DNA of 64,000 bases from Candidatus Hodarchaeaceae archaeon. Its GTDB lineage: Archaea > Hadarchaeota > Hadarchaeia > Hadarchaeales > Hadarchaeaceae. A program made the translations under genes and the position numbers. The notes beneath the pieces are model-generated. The model was not told where the DNA came from, made no database searches, and worked only from the letters and a program-made list of their open reading frames with translations. Below are positions 38,420-53,092 of this stretch, piece after piece. Every line of letters begins with the position of its first letter. Position 1 is the stretch's first letter. The DNA is taken from the NCBI GenBank assembly GCA_030018135.1, contig JASEGJ010000002.1:1230-65229 (forward strand). The letters run 5' to 3'.

Positions 38420-38716
38420 TTGGGGGGAAAATTGCGCAGGCTAGGTAAGGTCATGCATGTTACGAAGCGCGGGCTCGTGCTACGCGTCGAGGGGGTGCCG
38501 GAGCTCGGCAGGGCGGTATACGATGGGGAGCGCAGGCGCGTCGGCAGCGTGCTGGACGTATTTGGGCCCATCGGTAGCCCGTATGCGATGGTAAGGCCGG
38601 CCCAGGGCATGAGCCATGAGGACCTGACCGCGCTGATGGATAGGGAGTTGTTCACCAGAGAGAGGGAGTCGCATGGAAAGGGTGGAAAAGCAAAAGAAAT
38701 GCCCGGAATGCGGTAG
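38420..38716 (+). CDS. gar1: H/ACA RNP protein Gar1
   Basis: [16 protein letters not shown]...[18 protein letters not shown] is the Gar1 signature, and the conserved gar1-tfb gene order is present. Confidence 0.8.
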
Positions 38717-39593
38717 CGGAAAGCTCGTGCGTGATTACGAGCGGGCCGAACTGGTCTGCGCTACCTGCGGCTTCGTCATTTACGACAAGATCATGGACAT
38801 GGGGCCGGAGTGGCGGGCCTTCGACCAGGAGCAGCGGGACAGGCGAGGGCGGGTAGGGGCCCCCATGACCTACACCATCCACGATAAGGGCCTGTCGACC
38901 ATGATCGACTGGCGGGACAGGGACAGCCACGGCAAGAACCTGACACCCAAGCGGAGGGCGCAAATTTACCGCCTTCGCAAGTGGCAGCGCAGGATCCGCG
39001 TTTCGGATGCCACCGAGCGCAACCTAGCCTTCGCGCTGTCCGAACTCGACCGAATGGCGTCGCACCTCGGGCTGCCCCGCAACGTGCGGGAGGCGGCGGC
39101 GGTGATTTACAGGCGGGCGGTTGAGGAGAGGCTGATCCGCGGGCGGTCCATCGAGGGCGTCGCGGCGGCGGCGCTGTACGCGGCCTGCAGGGAGTGCAAG
39201 GTCCCGCGCACGCTCGACGAGATCGCCGAGGTCTCCCGCGTTGGCAAGAAGGAGATCGGGCGCAGCTACCGCTTCATAGCCAGGGAGCTGCTGATCCACC
39301 TGCGCCCGACGAGCCCGATCGACTACGTCCCGCGCTTCGGGAGCGAGCTGGGCCTGTCAGGCGAGGTTCAGTCCAAGGCGGTGGAGCTGCTCAAGGAGGC
39401 CAGCAATAAGGGGCTGACCTCCGGGCGGGGGCCGACGGGAGTCGCTGCGGCTGCGATTTACATAGCCAGCGTGCTCCAGGGCGAGAGGCGGACGCAGCGG
39501 GATGTGGCCGATGTGGCACGGGTTACTGAGGTCACCGTGAGGAACCGATATAAAGAACTCTGCGAAAAGCTCGGATTAGACGTAGAGCTTTAA
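38673..39593 (+). CDS. tfb: transcription initiation factor TFB
   Basis: N-terminal zinc ribbon CPECGS...CATCG, B-reader, and two cyclin repeats. Confidence 0.95.
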
Positions 39594-39614: not shown

Positions 39615-39657
39615 GATTACTTTCAGTGACCTCTCTCCCCAAAAGACGCTTAAAGCG
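39615..39657 (+). promoter_or_regulatory. copy B of the GATTACTTTCAGTGACCTCTCTCCCCAAAAGACGCTTAAAGCG promoter element
   Basis: Same sequence and same orientation relative to the downstream gene as copies A and C. The TTAAA box lies about 30 nt before the ORF start, and GGAGGTG lies just before TTG 39689. Confidence 0.6.
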
Positions 39658-39679
39658 ATGATGAGAGGGCTCCACGGAG

Positions 39680-40855
39680 GTGGTGAGTTTGAAGGAAATC
39701 GTTGGAGATCAGGATGGAGTTATCCTCGATACATTGGAGATGGTGCCGAGCGAAATTTCAGGGCGAAAAGTCGTTGCCAAAAGTTTAAGCAACAAGGTGG
39801 CCTTATATCCTCCCGCATCAGGGAAGTGGGGCGGAGGCAGAGAATCTAAAAAAGTCATCCTCAACAGAATCGTGCTATTGGATAGGCTGTTTTTTGAGGG
39901 ACTTGGGCTATGGCAAGGTGAAGGAAGCAAGGGCAAGGGTATCTATTTTTGTAACTCTAACTTGCAAATCATGCGCCATTTCTTAACGTTCGTCGAAGAA
40001 AAGCTAGGGTTACCAAGAGCTGACTTTAAAGTTACAGTCTGCACACCTCGCTCTAGCGAGCAGGATGAAATCAGAGAGAAATTGTCCGAAGTGCTCGGAG
40101 TTCCGATCAACAATTTCACAGCTGTGTGCGTCGATCCCAGAATCAATAAGGAAAACGTTCAGGTATACATTAACTCGATTGTACTAGTTGAACTGCTAAA
40201 GAATTTACATGAAAAGTTGAAGCCGTTGATCAGATCGAATACAGAGTTCGCGGCAGCTTACCTACGGGGCATATTTGCTGGAGAAGGCTCCGTGTTATTG
40301 AAAAAGTCCGGGGTTTTATTCCACGTTGACTTCGCTACCAAAGATGAAAGCTCAGTTGAGTTCTATAAACAATGCCTCGATCTTCTCGGAATTGCACATG
40401 GCAAATATATGGAACGGAGTCTAAAATTTCAAATCTATGGCCGGCGAAATTTCCAACGCTTCAAGGAGCTCGACATCCACACCCTGCACCCGGAGAAGCA
40501 TGTAAAGTTTGAACAAGGATTCGCAAACTACAAACGCACAAATGTGTTGGATGGTGAGGAAGCCCGATCGCTCATCATACAGCAACTCGCCTCGGGTCCG
40601 AAAACCTACGACGAGCTTGCGGCAGCGTTGGGTAAGGCTAGGACGACGATTCAAGCCCACCACATCCCGATCCTCGAACGCCGAGGCCTCTTGAAATGTG
40701 TCGGGAAGCGTGGTCAAGCTTCGCTCTGGGCCCTTACGGAAGGCAAAATAACTCCACCGCCAAATGTTAATCGAGCCCCATGCGAGGAACCTACGCCCTG
40801 CTCGTGCACGTGCCCTACGACCTCGCCGTCAGCGTGGGCGAGCTCGGCACGCTGA
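39680..40855 (+). CDS. LAGLIDADG-type (double-motif) endonuclease-like protein fused to a C-terminal winged helix
   Basis: Two LAGLIDADG-like motifs (LFFEGLGLWQGEGS and AAAYLRGIFAGEGS). C-terminal wHTH (LIIQQLASGPKTYDELAAALGKARTTIQAHHIPILERRGLL). Visibly AT-richer than its flanks. The last ~25 codons overlap the next gene and may not be real. Confidence 0.6.
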   Translation: MVSLKEIVGDQDGVILDTLEMVPSEISGRKVVAKSLSNKVALYPPASGKWGGGRESKKVILNRIVLLDRLFFEGLGLWQGEGSKGKGIYFCNSNLQIMRHFLTFVEEKLGLPRADFKVTVCTPRSSEQDEIREKLSEVLGVPINNFTAVCVDPRINKENVQVYINSIVLVELLKNLHEKLKPLIRSNTEFAAAYLRGIFAGEGSVLLKKSGVLFHVDFATKDESSVEFYKQCLDLLGIAHGKYMERSLKFQIYGRRNFQRFKELDIHTLHPEKHVKFEQGFANYKRTNVLDGEEARSLIIQQLASGPKTYDELAAALGKARTTIQAHHIPILERRGLLKCVGKRGQASLWALTEGKITPPPNVNRAPCEEPTPCSCTCPTTSPSAWASSAR

Positions 40856-41205
40856 GCTTCAACGCAGGCTACTACGCCTACATCGGCTCGGCGCTGGGCG
40901 GCCTCAAGGCGCGAGTGGGGCGCCACCTCCGAGCTGAGAAGAGGCCCCACTGGCACATCGACTTCCTCCTGGCGAGGAGCAGGGCTGTGGACATCGTCGC
41001 AGCCCCCTCTCGAACGCGAAGGGAGTGCGCGGTCGCGGGGGAGCTGGCAAAAAAACTCCAAAGCGTCAGAGGATTCGGCTCCAGCGATTGTGCCTGCCAG
41101 TCGCACCTTTTCTACAGCCCCGACTTCAACGAGCTCCTCAGGCGGGTGCTGCTGGGCTTCAGGGCGTGCGGGTTGAAGCCCGCCAAGGGTGGTCCGCTTG
41201 GGTAG
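40780..41205 (+). CDS. GIY-YIG superfamily nuclease, DUF123 family
   Basis: GTYALLV...GYYAYIGSALGGLKARVGRHL...HWHIDFL is the DUF123 (URI-like) signature. Confidence 0.8.
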   Translation: MRGTYALLVHVPYDLAVSVGELGTLSFNAGYYAYIGSALGGLKARVGRHLRAEKRPHWHIDFLLARSRAVDIVAAPSRTRRECAVAGELAKKLQSVRGFGSSDCACQSHLFYSPDFNELLRRVLLGFRACGLKPAKGGPLG

Positions 41206-41812
41206 GCGGTGGCAGCTCGAGCGGGGGCGGGACCACTTCTACCGCATGGCCAAGCGCGAGCGCTACAGGTCACGTGCGGCCTTCAAGCTGAAGCAGTTGG
41301 ACGAACGCTACAACCTCCTGCGCCGCGGGCATGTCGTCGTCGATTTGGGCGCCGCACCAGGGGGCTGGCTCCAGGTGGCCCGCGAGCGCGTGGGGGGCGA
41401 GGGCTTCGTGCTGGGCATCGACCTACAGGCGATAGCCGAGCTGCCGCACGAGAACGTCGCCACGCTCGTCGCCGACATCACCGACGCCTCCACGCCCGAG
41501 CTCATCATGGCGAAGTTGCCCAGGGCTGCTGACGTCGTGCTCTCCGACGCCTCACCCAAAATCTCAGGCGTTTGGGACGTCGACCAAGCGAGGTCGGTCG
41601 AGCTCGCCCGCTCCGCGCTGGCGATCGCAGATGCAATCCTAGCTCCCGGAGGAAAGTTGCTCGTCAAGGTCTTTCAGGGAGGGATGTTCGAGGAGCTGGT
41701 CGCCGAGGTGAGGCGGAGGTTCAGCTCCCTCAAGGTCACCAAGCCCGCCGCCTCGCGCAGGGGGAGCGCCGAGGTCTACGTCGTGGCGAAGGGCTTCAGG
41801 CGATCTCGATAG
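41189..41812 (+). CDS. rlmE: 23S rRNA 2'-O-ribose methyltransferase RlmE/FtsJ
   Basis: DHFYRMAKRERYRSRAAFKL, SAM motif VVDLGAAPGGW, and the K-D-K-E family layout. Confidence 0.9.
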   Translation: MVRLGRRWQLERGRDHFYRMAKRERYRSRAAFKLKQLDERYNLLRRGHVVVDLGAAPGGWLQVARERVGGEGFVLGIDLQAIAELPHENVATLVADITDASTPELIMAKLPRAADVVLSDASPKISGVWDVDQARSVELARSALAIADAILAPGGKLLVKVFQGGMFEELVAEVRRRFSSLKVTKPAASRRGSAEVYVVAKGFRRSR

Positions 41813-53050: not shown

Positions 53051-53092
53051 CTTTTAAGCGGTTTTGGGGGAGAGAGGTCACCGAAAGTAATC
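53051..53092 (-). promoter_or_regulatory. copy C of the GATTACTTTCGGTGACCTCTCTCCCCCAAAACCGCTTAAAAG promoter element
   Basis: Same element and same orientation as copies A and B. The TTAAAA box lies about 35 nt before the ATG at 53022. Confidence 0.6.

What the first reader, a model, noticed from the sequence alone, without database searches (positions are those of the whole stretch)
39680..41205. Free-standing LAGLIDADG-like protein fused to a winged helix, coupled to a DUF123 GIY-YIG nuclease
Between tfb and rlmE lie two nuclease-family genes. The first has two LAGLIDADG-type motifs (GLGLWQGEGS and GIFAGEGS, both ending in Glu) and then a wHTH. That architecture is not the usual intein or intron-borne homing endonuclease. 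Its coding DNA is visibly AT-richer than the flanks, which suggests horizontal acquisition. The second is a DUF123 URI/GIY-YIG protein whose start lies inside the last ~25 codons of the first ORF. Both are driven by copy B of the shared promoter element and seem co-transcribed with rlmE. This may be a domesticated homing endonuclease acting as a DNA-binding regulator, or a two-nuclease repair or defence module.
Basis: partly seen in the sequence, partly recalled or inferred. Interest (0 to 1): 0.62.

Follow-up and report, generated by a model that had tools for sequence, protein, structure and literature searches.

The report
Selfish LAGLIDADG-wHTH nuclease gene beside tfb
The gene after tfb is most likely a free-standing, mobile homing-endonuclease gene of a so far uncharacterised LAGLIDADG plus winged-helix type that always parks at the 3' end of the archaeal transcription factor B gene. 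Its neighbour DUF123 is an ordinary core gene that only happens to sit next to it.

Summary
ORF 39680-40855 has two LAGLIDADG motifs, both ending in Glu, followed by an ArsR-type winged helix. The fold model matches I-DmoI, E-DreI and WhiA. The gene is AT-rich (47% GC against 64-67% in its neighbours) and runs 76 nt into DUF123.

DUF123 is a single-copy core gene in 39 of 41 relatives and is always paired with rlmE. It stays with rlmE even where tfb-LAGL lies elsewhere, and it appears to have its own promoter inside the LAGL 3' end.

The LAGL gene behaves like a selfish element:
- It is intact in about 9 of 41 relatives and is a pseudogene in 2.
- It is reduced to a 17-45-codon 3' remnant in at least 8 lineages.
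- It is absent from 33-nt tfb-DUF123 spacers in a sister family.
- Two contigs with 97% identical flanks and identical TFB carry LAGL alleles only 59% identical.
- It abuts the tfb 3' end co-directionally in Hadarchaeota and convergently (0-2 nt gap or a 17-nt overlap) in Aenigmatarchaeota. One relative sits between rpl4 and rpl23.

Both catalytic acids are kept family-wide and dN/dS is about 0.1.

Best reading: a free-standing homing endonuclease gene targeting the tfb 3' region. Cleavage itself is inferred and was not shown.

The parts
38673..39593 (+). tfb (transcription factor B), uninterrupted here. Its 3' end is the constant neighbour of the LAGL gene and is the proposed homing target region.
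   Evidence: Pfam TFIIB 1.4e-52 and Zn_Ribbon_TF. LAGL abuts the tfb 3' end in every locus examined.
39618..39655 (+). Promoter module of the LAGL gene. The shared box TACTTTCAGTGACCTCTCTCCCCAAAAG spans 39618-39645 and the TATA-like GCTTAAAG spans 39648-39655, about 25 nt before the start codon.
   Evidence: There are two copies in the window and none in shuffles. The genome holds about 16 copies, placed before MCM, RadA, NurA, Top6B, an OB-fold gene, a radical-SAM gene and four LAGLIDADG genes. The box is conserved upstream of LAGL in relatives.
39680..40855 (+). LAGLIDADG-wHTH ORF, 391 aa. A database entry uses a start 3 codons later, giving 388 aa. The parts are an N-terminal beta domain (aa 1-67), a LAGLIDADG pseudo-dimer (aa 68-283) and a wHTH (aa 292-352). 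The tail (aa about 356-391) is a read-through over the DUF123 promoter and 5' coding region.
   Evidence: A cluster member of 388 aa lies on a 95,308-nt contig. The tail matches the out-of-frame DUF123 5' end in LAGL-less genomes.
39899..39928 (+). LAGLIDADG motif 1, GLGLWQGEGS. E81 is the putative metal-binding acid.
   Evidence: E81 is nearly invariant in 45 homologues (one has D), and distant relatives have D.
40262..40291 (+). LAGLIDADG motif 2, LRGIFAGEGS. E202 is the putative metal-binding acid.
   Evidence: E202 is invariant in 45 homologues, and distant relatives have E or D.
40553..40735 (+). ArsR/SmtB-type winged helix-turn-helix, the most conserved part of the protein.
   Evidence: Pfam HTH_5. 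Foldseek hits SmtB, NolR and ZitR. Many invariant residues lie here: K308, T309, K319, R321, Q325.
40733..40779 (+). Conserved block inside the LAGL 3' end. It holds ACGGAAGGCAAAATAA at 40736-40751 and TTAATCGAGCCCC at 40767-40779. It is the putative BRE/TATA and short leader of the DUF123-rlmE operon.
   Evidence: The block is kept in occupied alleles and in at least 8 independent deletion alleles. It is absent from 33-nt virgin spacers and from the relocated DUF123 of G009. Its promoter function is inferred.
40780..41205 (+). DUF123 gene, a core gene translationally coupled to rlmE. It is not part of the mobile unit.
   Evidence: PF01986 1.2e-28. It is single copy in 39 of 41 relatives. The DUF123-rlmE adjacency holds everywhere examined.
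41189..41812 (+). rlmE (FtsJ-type rRNA methyltransferase). It overlaps the end of DUF123 by 17 nt.
   Evidence: Pfam FtsJ 1e-55.

Best explanation
ORF 39680-40855 is a free-standing homing endonuclease gene (HEG) of an uncharacterised archaeal family. The family has an intein-type (LAGLIDADG_3) single-chain pseudo-dimeric LAGLIDADG nuclease, a small N-terminal beta domain and a C-terminal ArsR-type winged helix that probably extends DNA recognition.

Inferred mechanism. The gene is transcribed from its own promoter, which carries the Hadarchaeota replication/repair box, so the enzyme would be made together with RadA, NurA and MCM. The enzyme cuts LAGL-less chromosomes at a long site in or next to the conserved 3' end of tfb. 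Recombinational repair from a LAGL-bearing copy then copies the gene, and some flanking DNA, into the cut chromosome.

Once fixed in a lineage the gene decays and is deleted. In Hadarchaeales the last 17-45 codons cannot be lost, because they have become the promoter of the downstream core operon DUF123-rlmE.

Shown here: the architecture and fold, the kept catalytic acids, purifying selection, patchy presence, pseudogenes, graded deletions, a virgin site, allele replacement in near-identical backgrounds, and constant adjacency to the tfb 3' end in two orientations and two phyla.

Inferred only: nuclease activity, the position of the target, the homing event itself, and the promoter role of the 3' end.
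For: Fold and active site:
- LAGLIDADG_3 plus HTH_5.
- AF2 pLDDT 88.8 with matches to I-DmoI, E-DreI and PI-SceI.
- E81 and E202 are conserved in 44-45 of 45 homologues, and as D or E in distant relatives.
- Lys residues follow both motifs.

Selection:
- dN/dS is 0.07-0.2. For own against L032, dS is 1.23 and dN is 0.139.

Selfish-element dynamics:
- The gene is single copy in its own genome.
- It is intact in about 9 of 41 relatives. The G024 copy has 8 stops and the G001 copy is in 3 pieces.
- 3' remnants that translate to ...GQAWLWAPAEGK... occur in G003, G013, G006, G019, G026, G021, G005 and G040.
- G031 and G028 have 33-nt tfb-DUF123 spacers with no remnant.

Horizontal replacement:
- L032 and L036 are 97.2% identical over 4,971 nt of upstream flank.
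- Their TFB and DUF211 proteins are 100% identical and RlmE is 91% identical.
- Their LAGL proteins are only 58.7% identical. The break starts in the last 60 nt of tfb, and the two alleles fall in the two deepest Hadarchaeota subclades.

Target-site fidelity:
- LAGL follows tfb in every Hadarchaeota locus, including those where DUF123-rlmE has moved away.
- In Aenigmatarchaeota and allied contigs it is convergent to tfb. The gaps are 0 nt (L040) and 2 nt (L039), and L055 has a 17-nt overlap. L067 shows the same arrangement, and L072 keeps only a wHTH remnant there.
- TFB is about 55% identical between the two phyla and 84-95% identical within Hadarchaeales. LAGL is 47-50% identical between them and 43-60% within.
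- A relative sits between rpl4 and rpl23.

Composition:
- LAGL is 10-20 GC points below tfb in every relative.
- At least seven of the genome's low-GC islands coincide with LAGLIDADG elements, both inteins and free-standing genes.
Against: - No cleavage, target site or homing event has been observed.
- Strong purifying selection over dS above 1, and an almost invariant wHTH, are more than a purely parasitic gene needs. They would also fit a host function.
- The gene uses a host replication/repair regulon promoter, which could mean recruitment by the host.
- All LAGL-less alleles within the family are imprecise deletions rather than clean empty sites, so ongoing re-invasion is not demonstrated.
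- No systematic immunising substitutions were seen in tfb.
- The LAGL tree separates the two phyla cleanly, so inter-phylum transfer rests on relative rates and not on nesting.
- No viral carrier was found.
Confidence: 0.66

Rival explanations
1. Domesticated LAGLIDADG scaffold acting as a sequence-specific DNA-binding regulator, an archaeal analogue of WhiA. It might autoregulate, or act on tfb or on the replication/repair box.
For: The architecture matches WhiA (LAGLIDADG plus a C-terminal HTH), and WhiA structure 3hyi is Foldseek hit 2. The wHTH is the best conserved part. dN/dS is about 0.1. The gene sits behind a regulon promoter. I-TevI shows that a homing endonuclease can also repress its own promoter (PMC3384342).
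Against: Both metal-binding acids are conserved family-wide, whereas WhiA has lost them (PMC3384342). The WhiA models score below cut-off: PF14527 gives 17.6 against 23.2, and TIGR00647 gives 14.8 against 44.1. The gene is deleted or pseudogenised in most relatives. Genomes without it keep many copies of the shared box: G004 has 13, G026 has 14 and G021 has 11. Adjacency is to the 3' end of tfb, in both orientations, and not to a promoter.
Confidence: 0.1
2. Two-nuclease repair or defence module in which LAGL-wHTH and DUF123 work together.
For: The ORFs are adjacent and overlap. In L032 against L036 the divergent tract also covers DUF123, which is 79% identical at the protein level against 91-100% for the flanks. 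LAGL carries a DNA-repair-type promoter.
Against: DUF123 is universal and single copy whether or not LAGL is present. It is linked to rlmE and not to LAGL. In four genera the two genes are on different contigs. Aenigmatarchaeota LAGL genes have no DUF123 neighbour. The divergence of DUF123 is explained by co-conversion of a flanking marker.
Confidence: 0.05
3. Partner of the tfb intein. The free-standing enzyme would cut intein-less tfb, or be co-converted with the intein 0.7 kb away, so that the two selfish elements spread together. This would be trans or collaborative homing, as for T4 mobE with I-TevIII. It refines the main explanation and does not replace it.
For: tfb carries a Ser1/Thr+1 intein of 340-515 aa after GAPMT(Y/L/F) in 8 of 15 loci with intact LAGL, but in only 4 of about 26 without (odds ratio 6.3, Fisher p 0.015, not corrected for phylogeny). 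The distance from the intein site to the tfb stop is only about 715 nt. There is a precedent in PMC2790892.
Against: The intein has its own LAGLIDADG domain with intact E and D in most copies. Seven intact LAGL loci, including this window, have no intein. Four genomes have the intein without LAGL. There is no profile similarity between the two nucleases (hhalign probability 7%). No immunising pattern appears at the intein site.
Confidence: 0.15

Closest known systems
Free-standing homing endonuclease genes of T-even phages and cyanophages (seg genes, mobE, F-CphI; 'intronless homing')
   Same: It is an intergenic, promoter-bearing nuclease gene parked next to a conserved target gene. Its presence is patchy and alleles are exchanged, with the break at the gene border. 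It neighbours an intervening element in the target gene (mobE with the nrdB intron, F-CphI with the psbA intron; PMC2790892, PMC6083498).
   Different: Those enzymes are GIY-YIG, HNH or EndoVII-type and live in phage genomes. This one is a LAGLIDADG enzyme with a wHTH in archaeal chromosomes, and the neighbouring element is an intein. No cleavage data exist for it.
Archaeal single-chain LAGLIDADG homing endonucleases (I-DmoI, I-Tsp061I) and intein endonuclease domains (PI-SceI, Tli VMA)
   Same: The pseudo-dimeric fold is shared (TM about 0.6 to I-DmoI) and there is an acidic residue at the end of each LAGLIDADG helix. The Pfam family LAGLIDADG_3 is the intein-type family.
   Different: It is not inside an intron or intein. 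It has an extra N-terminal beta domain and a C-terminal wHTH. It shows no specific similarity to the tfb intein next door.
HO endonuclease (F-SceII) of yeast
   Same: It is a free-standing LAGLIDADG enzyme of intein-type ancestry with an added C-terminal DNA-binding domain (PMC3384342; the domain details are from my own knowledge).
   Different: HO is domesticated, fixed and essential for mating-type switching, and its extra domain is a zinc finger. The gene here is repeatedly lost.
WhiA/DUF199 of Gram-positive bacteria
   Same: The domain order is the same, a LAGLIDADG pseudo-dimer followed by a C-terminal HTH. It is a top structural hit.
   Different: WhiA lacks the catalytic acids and lysines and is universally and vertically conserved (PMC3384342). 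Here the acids are kept and the gene is patchy. The WhiA profile scores are below cut-off.

Membership tests
LAGLIDADG homing endonucleases | [quoted passage not shown] | tested here: met
   PF14528 at E 5.4e-10. AF2 pLDDT 88.8. Foldseek hits E-DreI, I-DmoI, PI-SceI and I-Tsp061I.
LAGLIDADG homing endonucleases | Acidic metal-binding residue at the C-terminal end of each LAGLIDADG helix | tested here: met
   E81 is present in 44 of 45 homologues (one has D) and E202 in 45 of 45. Distant relatives have D or E.
LAGLIDADG homing endonucleases | Conserved active-site lysines (I-DmoI K42/43 and K120/130) | tested here: inconclusive
   Conserved Lys residues follow both motifs (K84/K86 and K208/K209). 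Their structural equivalence was not checked.
LAGLIDADG homing endonucleases | Site-specific cleavage of a long target in the allele that lacks the gene | not testable with these tools
   This needs purified protein and substrates.
LAGLIDADG homing endonucleases | Mobility: presence/absence polymorphism at one site, decay and horizontal replacement | tested here: met
   Patchy presence, pseudogenes, remnants and a virgin site were found. The L032/L036 allele swap shows replacement.
Intron- or intein-borne homing endonucleases | The ORF is embedded in a self-splicing intron or intein | tested here: not met
   It is a separate ORF with its own promoter, lying between tfb and DUF123.
WhiA/DUF199 | Profile membership (PF14527, TIGR00647) | tested here: not met
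   PF14527 gives 17.6 bits against a cut-off of 23.2, and TIGR00647 gives 14.8 against 44.1.
WhiA/DUF199 | Loss of the catalytic acids, and universal vertical conservation | tested here: not met
   The acids are kept. The gene is intact in about 9 of 41 relatives.
ArsR/SmtB winged-helix proteins | HTH_5-type wHTH domain | tested here: met
   PF01022 gives 23.6 bits against a cut-off of 22. Foldseek hits SmtB, NolR, ZitR and YodB on the C-terminus.
ArsR/SmtB winged-helix proteins | Stand-alone dimeric, metal- or redox-sensing repressor | tested here: not met
   The wHTH is a 60-aa C-terminal appendage of a 350-aa nuclease-fold protein.
DUF123 (PF01986) / GIY-YIG superfamily (the neighbouring gene) | Profile match to DUF123 | tested here: met
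   99.9 bits against a cut-off of 25.
DUF123 (PF01986) / GIY-YIG superfamily (the neighbouring gene) | GIY-YIG alpha/beta fold with the conserved Tyr, Arg and Glu | tested here: inconclusive
   AF2 pLDDT 87.4. Slx1 and HIGLE are among the top Foldseek hits, but at E 0.7-1.4 and TM about 0.4. Y5, Y32, Y34, R45 and E82 are invariant.

The most novel reading that the evidence does not exclude
LAGLIDADG-wHTH genes are a chromosomal, cross-phylum family of archaeal free-standing homing endonucleases. They target the 3' ends of universally conserved information genes: tfb in Hadarchaeota and Aenigmatarchaeota, and the rpl4-rpl23 junction elsewhere. They have wired themselves into the host in two ways. 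They borrow the replication/repair regulon promoter, so they are expressed together with the recombination machinery. They also donate their own 3' end as the promoter of a downstream essential operon, which prevents clean excision. Together with the tfb intein they would make tfb a hotspot of gene conversion, and a natural marker of DNA exchange in uncultivated archaea.
Probability: 0.35. Interest if true: 0.7.

Novelty: new variant of a known kind. Interest (0 to 1): 0.56.

Why it matters
Free-standing homing endonuclease genes are well studied in phages but hardly at all in archaeal chromosomes. To my knowledge no LAGLIDADG enzyme with a fused winged helix has been characterised, and a full-text search for Hadarchaeota plus LAGLIDADG found nothing.

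If the enzyme is active, several things follow:
- It is a new scaffold for long-site recognition, a LAGLIDADG core extended by a wHTH.
- It gives direct evidence that uncultivated, small-genome Hadarchaeota exchange and recombine chromosomal DNA.
- It is a clear case of a selfish gene whose remnant became an indispensable promoter for a core operon.

The analysis also corrects the likely annotation of this family as 'ArsR family transcriptional regulator'.

Tried and rejected
- Paralogues of the whole protein in the own genome: there is only one copy.
- Sequence search of PDB with LAGL: only weak wHTH hits, to RuvB and NmtR.
- Sequence search of PDB with DUF123: nothing.
- Descent from the tfb intein: rejected, hhalign probability 7%.
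- LAGL-wHTH as the factor that binds the shared promoter box: rejected, because genomes that lost LAGL keep 11-14 copies of the box.
- Immunising substitutions at the intein insertion site or in the last 60 nt of tfb, comparing LAGL-bearing and LAGL-less alleles: no clear pattern. All five deletion alleles first examined end in TAG.
- RNA data for transcription start sites: no RNA runs were listed. DNA metagenome contigs only show a relative about 97-98% identical over the longest pieces, and assemblies break at the repeated box. One low-confidence joint, 39624 to 40767 with a side of 22 nt, was not trusted.
- Viral carriers: none in IMG/VR.
- Literature: nothing on DUF123 plus GIY-YIG.
- Tree test for nesting of Aenigmatarchaeota inside Hadarchaeota: not nested. 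Inter-phylum transfer therefore rests only on the compressed ratio of between-phylum to within-phylum divergence.
Full report
**1. What is there**

ORF 39680-40855 (+) encodes 391 aa.
- Pfam finds LAGLIDADG_3 (E 5.4e-10, aa 189-263) and the ArsR-type HTH_5 (23.6 bits against a cut-off of 22, aa 294-338). The WhiA-specific models stay below their cut-offs.
- An AlphaFold2 model built on 45 homologues has pLDDT 88.8 and pTM 0.77. [quoted passage not shown]
- Foldseek against the PDB returns E-DreI, WhiA, I-DmoI (TM about 0.6 on the target), PI-SceI and the Tli VMA intein. For the C-terminus it returns SmtB, NolR and ZitR.
- In the alignment, E81 is present in 44 of 45 sequences (one has D) and E202 in all 45. 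The wHTH is the most conserved segment. Distant relatives keep D or E at both positions.

The LAGLIDADG fold and an apparently complete pair of metal-binding acids are therefore confirmed. This is the feature that WhiA has lost (PMC3384342).

**2. Composition**

The gene has 47.2% GC in a genome of 55.5 +/- 4.6%, which is the 4th percentile of 1080-nt windows. The eye-catching contrast is partly due to the neighbours tfb, DUF123, rlmE and trm1, which at 64.5-66.8% lie in the top 0.3-3%. In every relative the LAGL gene is 10-20 GC points below tfb. The own genome has 12 LAGLIDADG_3 matches: five in inteins inside long ORFs and four in free-standing genes. At least seven of the genome's low-GC islands lie on these elements. 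The gene therefore shares the composition of the genome's undoubted selfish elements.

**3. DUF123 is not its partner**

DUF123 (PF01986, E 1.2e-28) occurs once in 39 of 41 genomes of the order. It is always followed, with overlapping stop and start, by rlmE. In G009, G023, G012 and G022 the DUF123-rlmE pair lies on another contig, while LAGL stays with tfb.

The 76-nt overlap exists because the LAGL frame has no stop until it has run over the DUF123 start. Several relatives have the same tail (...NRAPCAEP...). The tail also appears as an out-of-frame match in genomes that have no LAGL at all. It is a read-through tail and not a sequencing error.

**4. The 'empty' sites**

tfb and DUF123 are directly adjacent in many relatives. 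Within the family these sites are not virgin. Between the tfb stop and the DUF123 ATG they keep 55-146 nt that translate to the LAGL C-terminus. Examples are IPILEREGEVKRVGK..AWFWILAESK in G006 and GQAWLWAPAEGT in G021.
- Eight lineages show deletions of different extent: G003, G013, G006, G019, G026, G021, G005 and G040. G004 looks alike.
- G024 has a copy with 8 stops and G001 a copy in three pieces.
- In a sister family (G031, G028) the spacer is only 33 nt and has no remnant. This is the never-occupied or fully cleaned state.
- All remnants keep the block GCGGAAGGCAAAA(T/G)A at -45 to -31 and TTAATCGAG at -13 of the DUF123 ATG (window 40733-40779).

I infer that this block is the BRE/TATA and short leader of DUF123-rlmE. 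On that view the 3' end of the LAGL gene became the promoter of the downstream core operon, which explains why every loss is partial. Six of the eight deletion alleles have also lost the shared upstream box. No RNA data were available to test transcription.

**5. Mobility**

- *Allele replacement.* Two metagenome contigs with the same gene order, L032 and L036, are 97.2% identical over 4,971 nt upstream. Their TFB and DUF211 proteins are 100% identical, and downstream they are 92% identical (RlmE 91%). Yet their LAGL proteins are only 58.7% identical and DUF123 is 79% identical. Identity starts to fall in the last 60 nt of tfb. The two alleles belong to the two deepest Hadarchaeota subclades of the family tree. 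This is replacement of the LAGL segment, with co-conversion of the neighbour, in an otherwise almost identical chromosome.
- *Selection.* Intact copies are under purifying selection, with dN/dS of 0.07-0.2 where dS is not saturated.
- *Position.* In all Hadarchaeota loci the gene follows tfb co-directionally.
- *Second phylum.* In contigs of Candidatus Aenigmatarchaeota and allied contigs it is convergent to tfb. L040 has a 0-nt gap, L039 a 2-nt gap and L055 a 17-nt overlap. L067 shows the same arrangement, L038 has a copy split by an insertion, and L072 keeps only a wHTH remnant.
- *Relative divergence.* TFB is about 55% identical between the two groups and 84-95% within Hadarchaeales. LAGL is 47-50% identical between them and 43-60% within. 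The LAGL history is therefore much more compressed than that of its host gene, although the two phyla are not nested in the tree.
- *Other sites.* A more distant relative with the same architecture sits between rpl4 and rpl23.

Constant contact with the 3' end of a highly conserved gene, in both orientations, is what a target-site-specific free-standing HEG produces. It is not what a regulator or an operon partner would show.

**6. Promoter**

The box at 39618-39645 plus GCTTAAAG at 39648-39655 lies about 25 nt before the start codon. The box has about 16 copies in the genome. They stand in front of MCM, RadA, NurA, Top6B, an OB-fold protein, a radical-SAM protein, a primase-like ORF and four free-standing LAGLIDADG genes. 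The box is abundant in genomes that have lost the tfb-linked LAGL, so this protein is not the factor that binds it. Expression together with the recombination machinery would suit a homing endonuclease, but this link is an inference.

**7. The tfb intein**

In many relatives tfb carries a Ser1/Thr+1 intein of 340-515 aa after GAPMT(Y/L/F). It has its own LAGLIDADG domain, which is intact in most copies and degenerate in G030 and G018. The window's tfb has none.

The intein is found in 8 of 15 loci with intact LAGL and in 4 of about 26 without. The odds ratio is 6.3 and Fisher p is 0.015, not corrected for phylogeny. The two nucleases are unrelated at profile level. The simplest reading is hitch-hiking by co-conversion of two selfish elements that lie 0.7 kb apart. 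A T4 mobE-like trans-homing relation (PMC2790892) is possible but not needed.

**8. Verdict**

The best explanation is a free-standing LAGLIDADG-wHTH homing endonuclease gene targeting the tfb 3' region (confidence about 0.66). Nuclease activity, target and homing are inferred. The alternatives are:
- a WhiA-like regulator (about 0.10);
- a two-nuclease module with DUF123 (about 0.05);
- a cooperative relation with the intein, as a refinement of the main explanation (about 0.15).

It is a new variant of a known kind and is of moderate interest.

Noticed in passing
Related loci L021, L024/L037, L025, L026, L027, L031, L035, L049, L050, L066 (not in the window, whose tfb 38673-39593 is uninterrupted): tfb of many Hadarchaeales carries an intein of 340-515 aa, inserted after GAPMT(Y/L/F) and before TIHDKG. 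It has Ser1 and Thr+1 and ends in Asn or Asp. Its own LAGLIDADG domain is degenerate in G030 (catalytic E to K, D to N) and half deleted in G018.
   Followed up: partly
window 39618-39645 (+), 53062-53089 (-), about 20704 (-); own genome, about 16 copies: The shared box TTACTTTCGGTGACCTCTCTCCCCAAAA, fused to a TATA-like GCTTAAA, precedes MCM, RadA, NurA, Top6B, an OB-fold gene, a radical-SAM gene, a 276-aa primase-like ORF and four free-standing LAGLIDADG genes. Relatives have 0-14 copies each, and the reversed-pattern control gives 0-1.
   Followed up: partly
own genome C11:68226-72669 (outside the window): The gene order is archease, then the shared box, then a free-standing 191-aa LAGLIDADG gene, then a 118-aa low-GC ORF, then an RtcB-like ORF with an intein at GYDIN|C. 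The RtcB N-extein was not found in frame upstream. This is a second case of a free-standing LAGLIDADG gene beside an intein-bearing core gene.
   Followed up: no
own genome C4:14669, C5:6411, C17:1795-4431, C11:69810, C45:19941: At least five intein-type LAGLIDADG domains lie inside long ORFs (766-1671 aa) in a 1.1-Mb genome. At least four of them lie in low-GC islands.
   Followed up: no
L032:6410-7287 (also L033, L034): An extra segment of about 800 nt, with a 205-aa ORF on the minus strand and no Pfam hit, lies between DUF123 and rlmE. It is absent from the otherwise 92-97% identical L036, and DUF123 is annotated as N-terminally shorter there.
   Followed up: no
L048 (G014:C31:1700-2800): A 756-nt segment of other sequence replaces the LAGL gene between tfb and DUF123. 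Only the last roughly 45 nt (AGAAAAGCAAAAGTAGC...TTAATCGAG) of the usual remnant is kept.
   Followed up: no
L054:2445-3560: A distant LAGLIDADG-wHTH relative (P0100) is inserted between rpl4 and rpl23 of a ribosomal protein operon in an unidentified archaeal contig.
   Followed up: no
L037:7973-8421: In G023 the genes after LAGL are an ABC_ATPase-family gene and a ParE toxin with a small upstream ORF, not DUF123-rlmE. The tfb-LAGL pair was separated from DUF123-rlmE by rearrangement in several genera.
   Followed up: no
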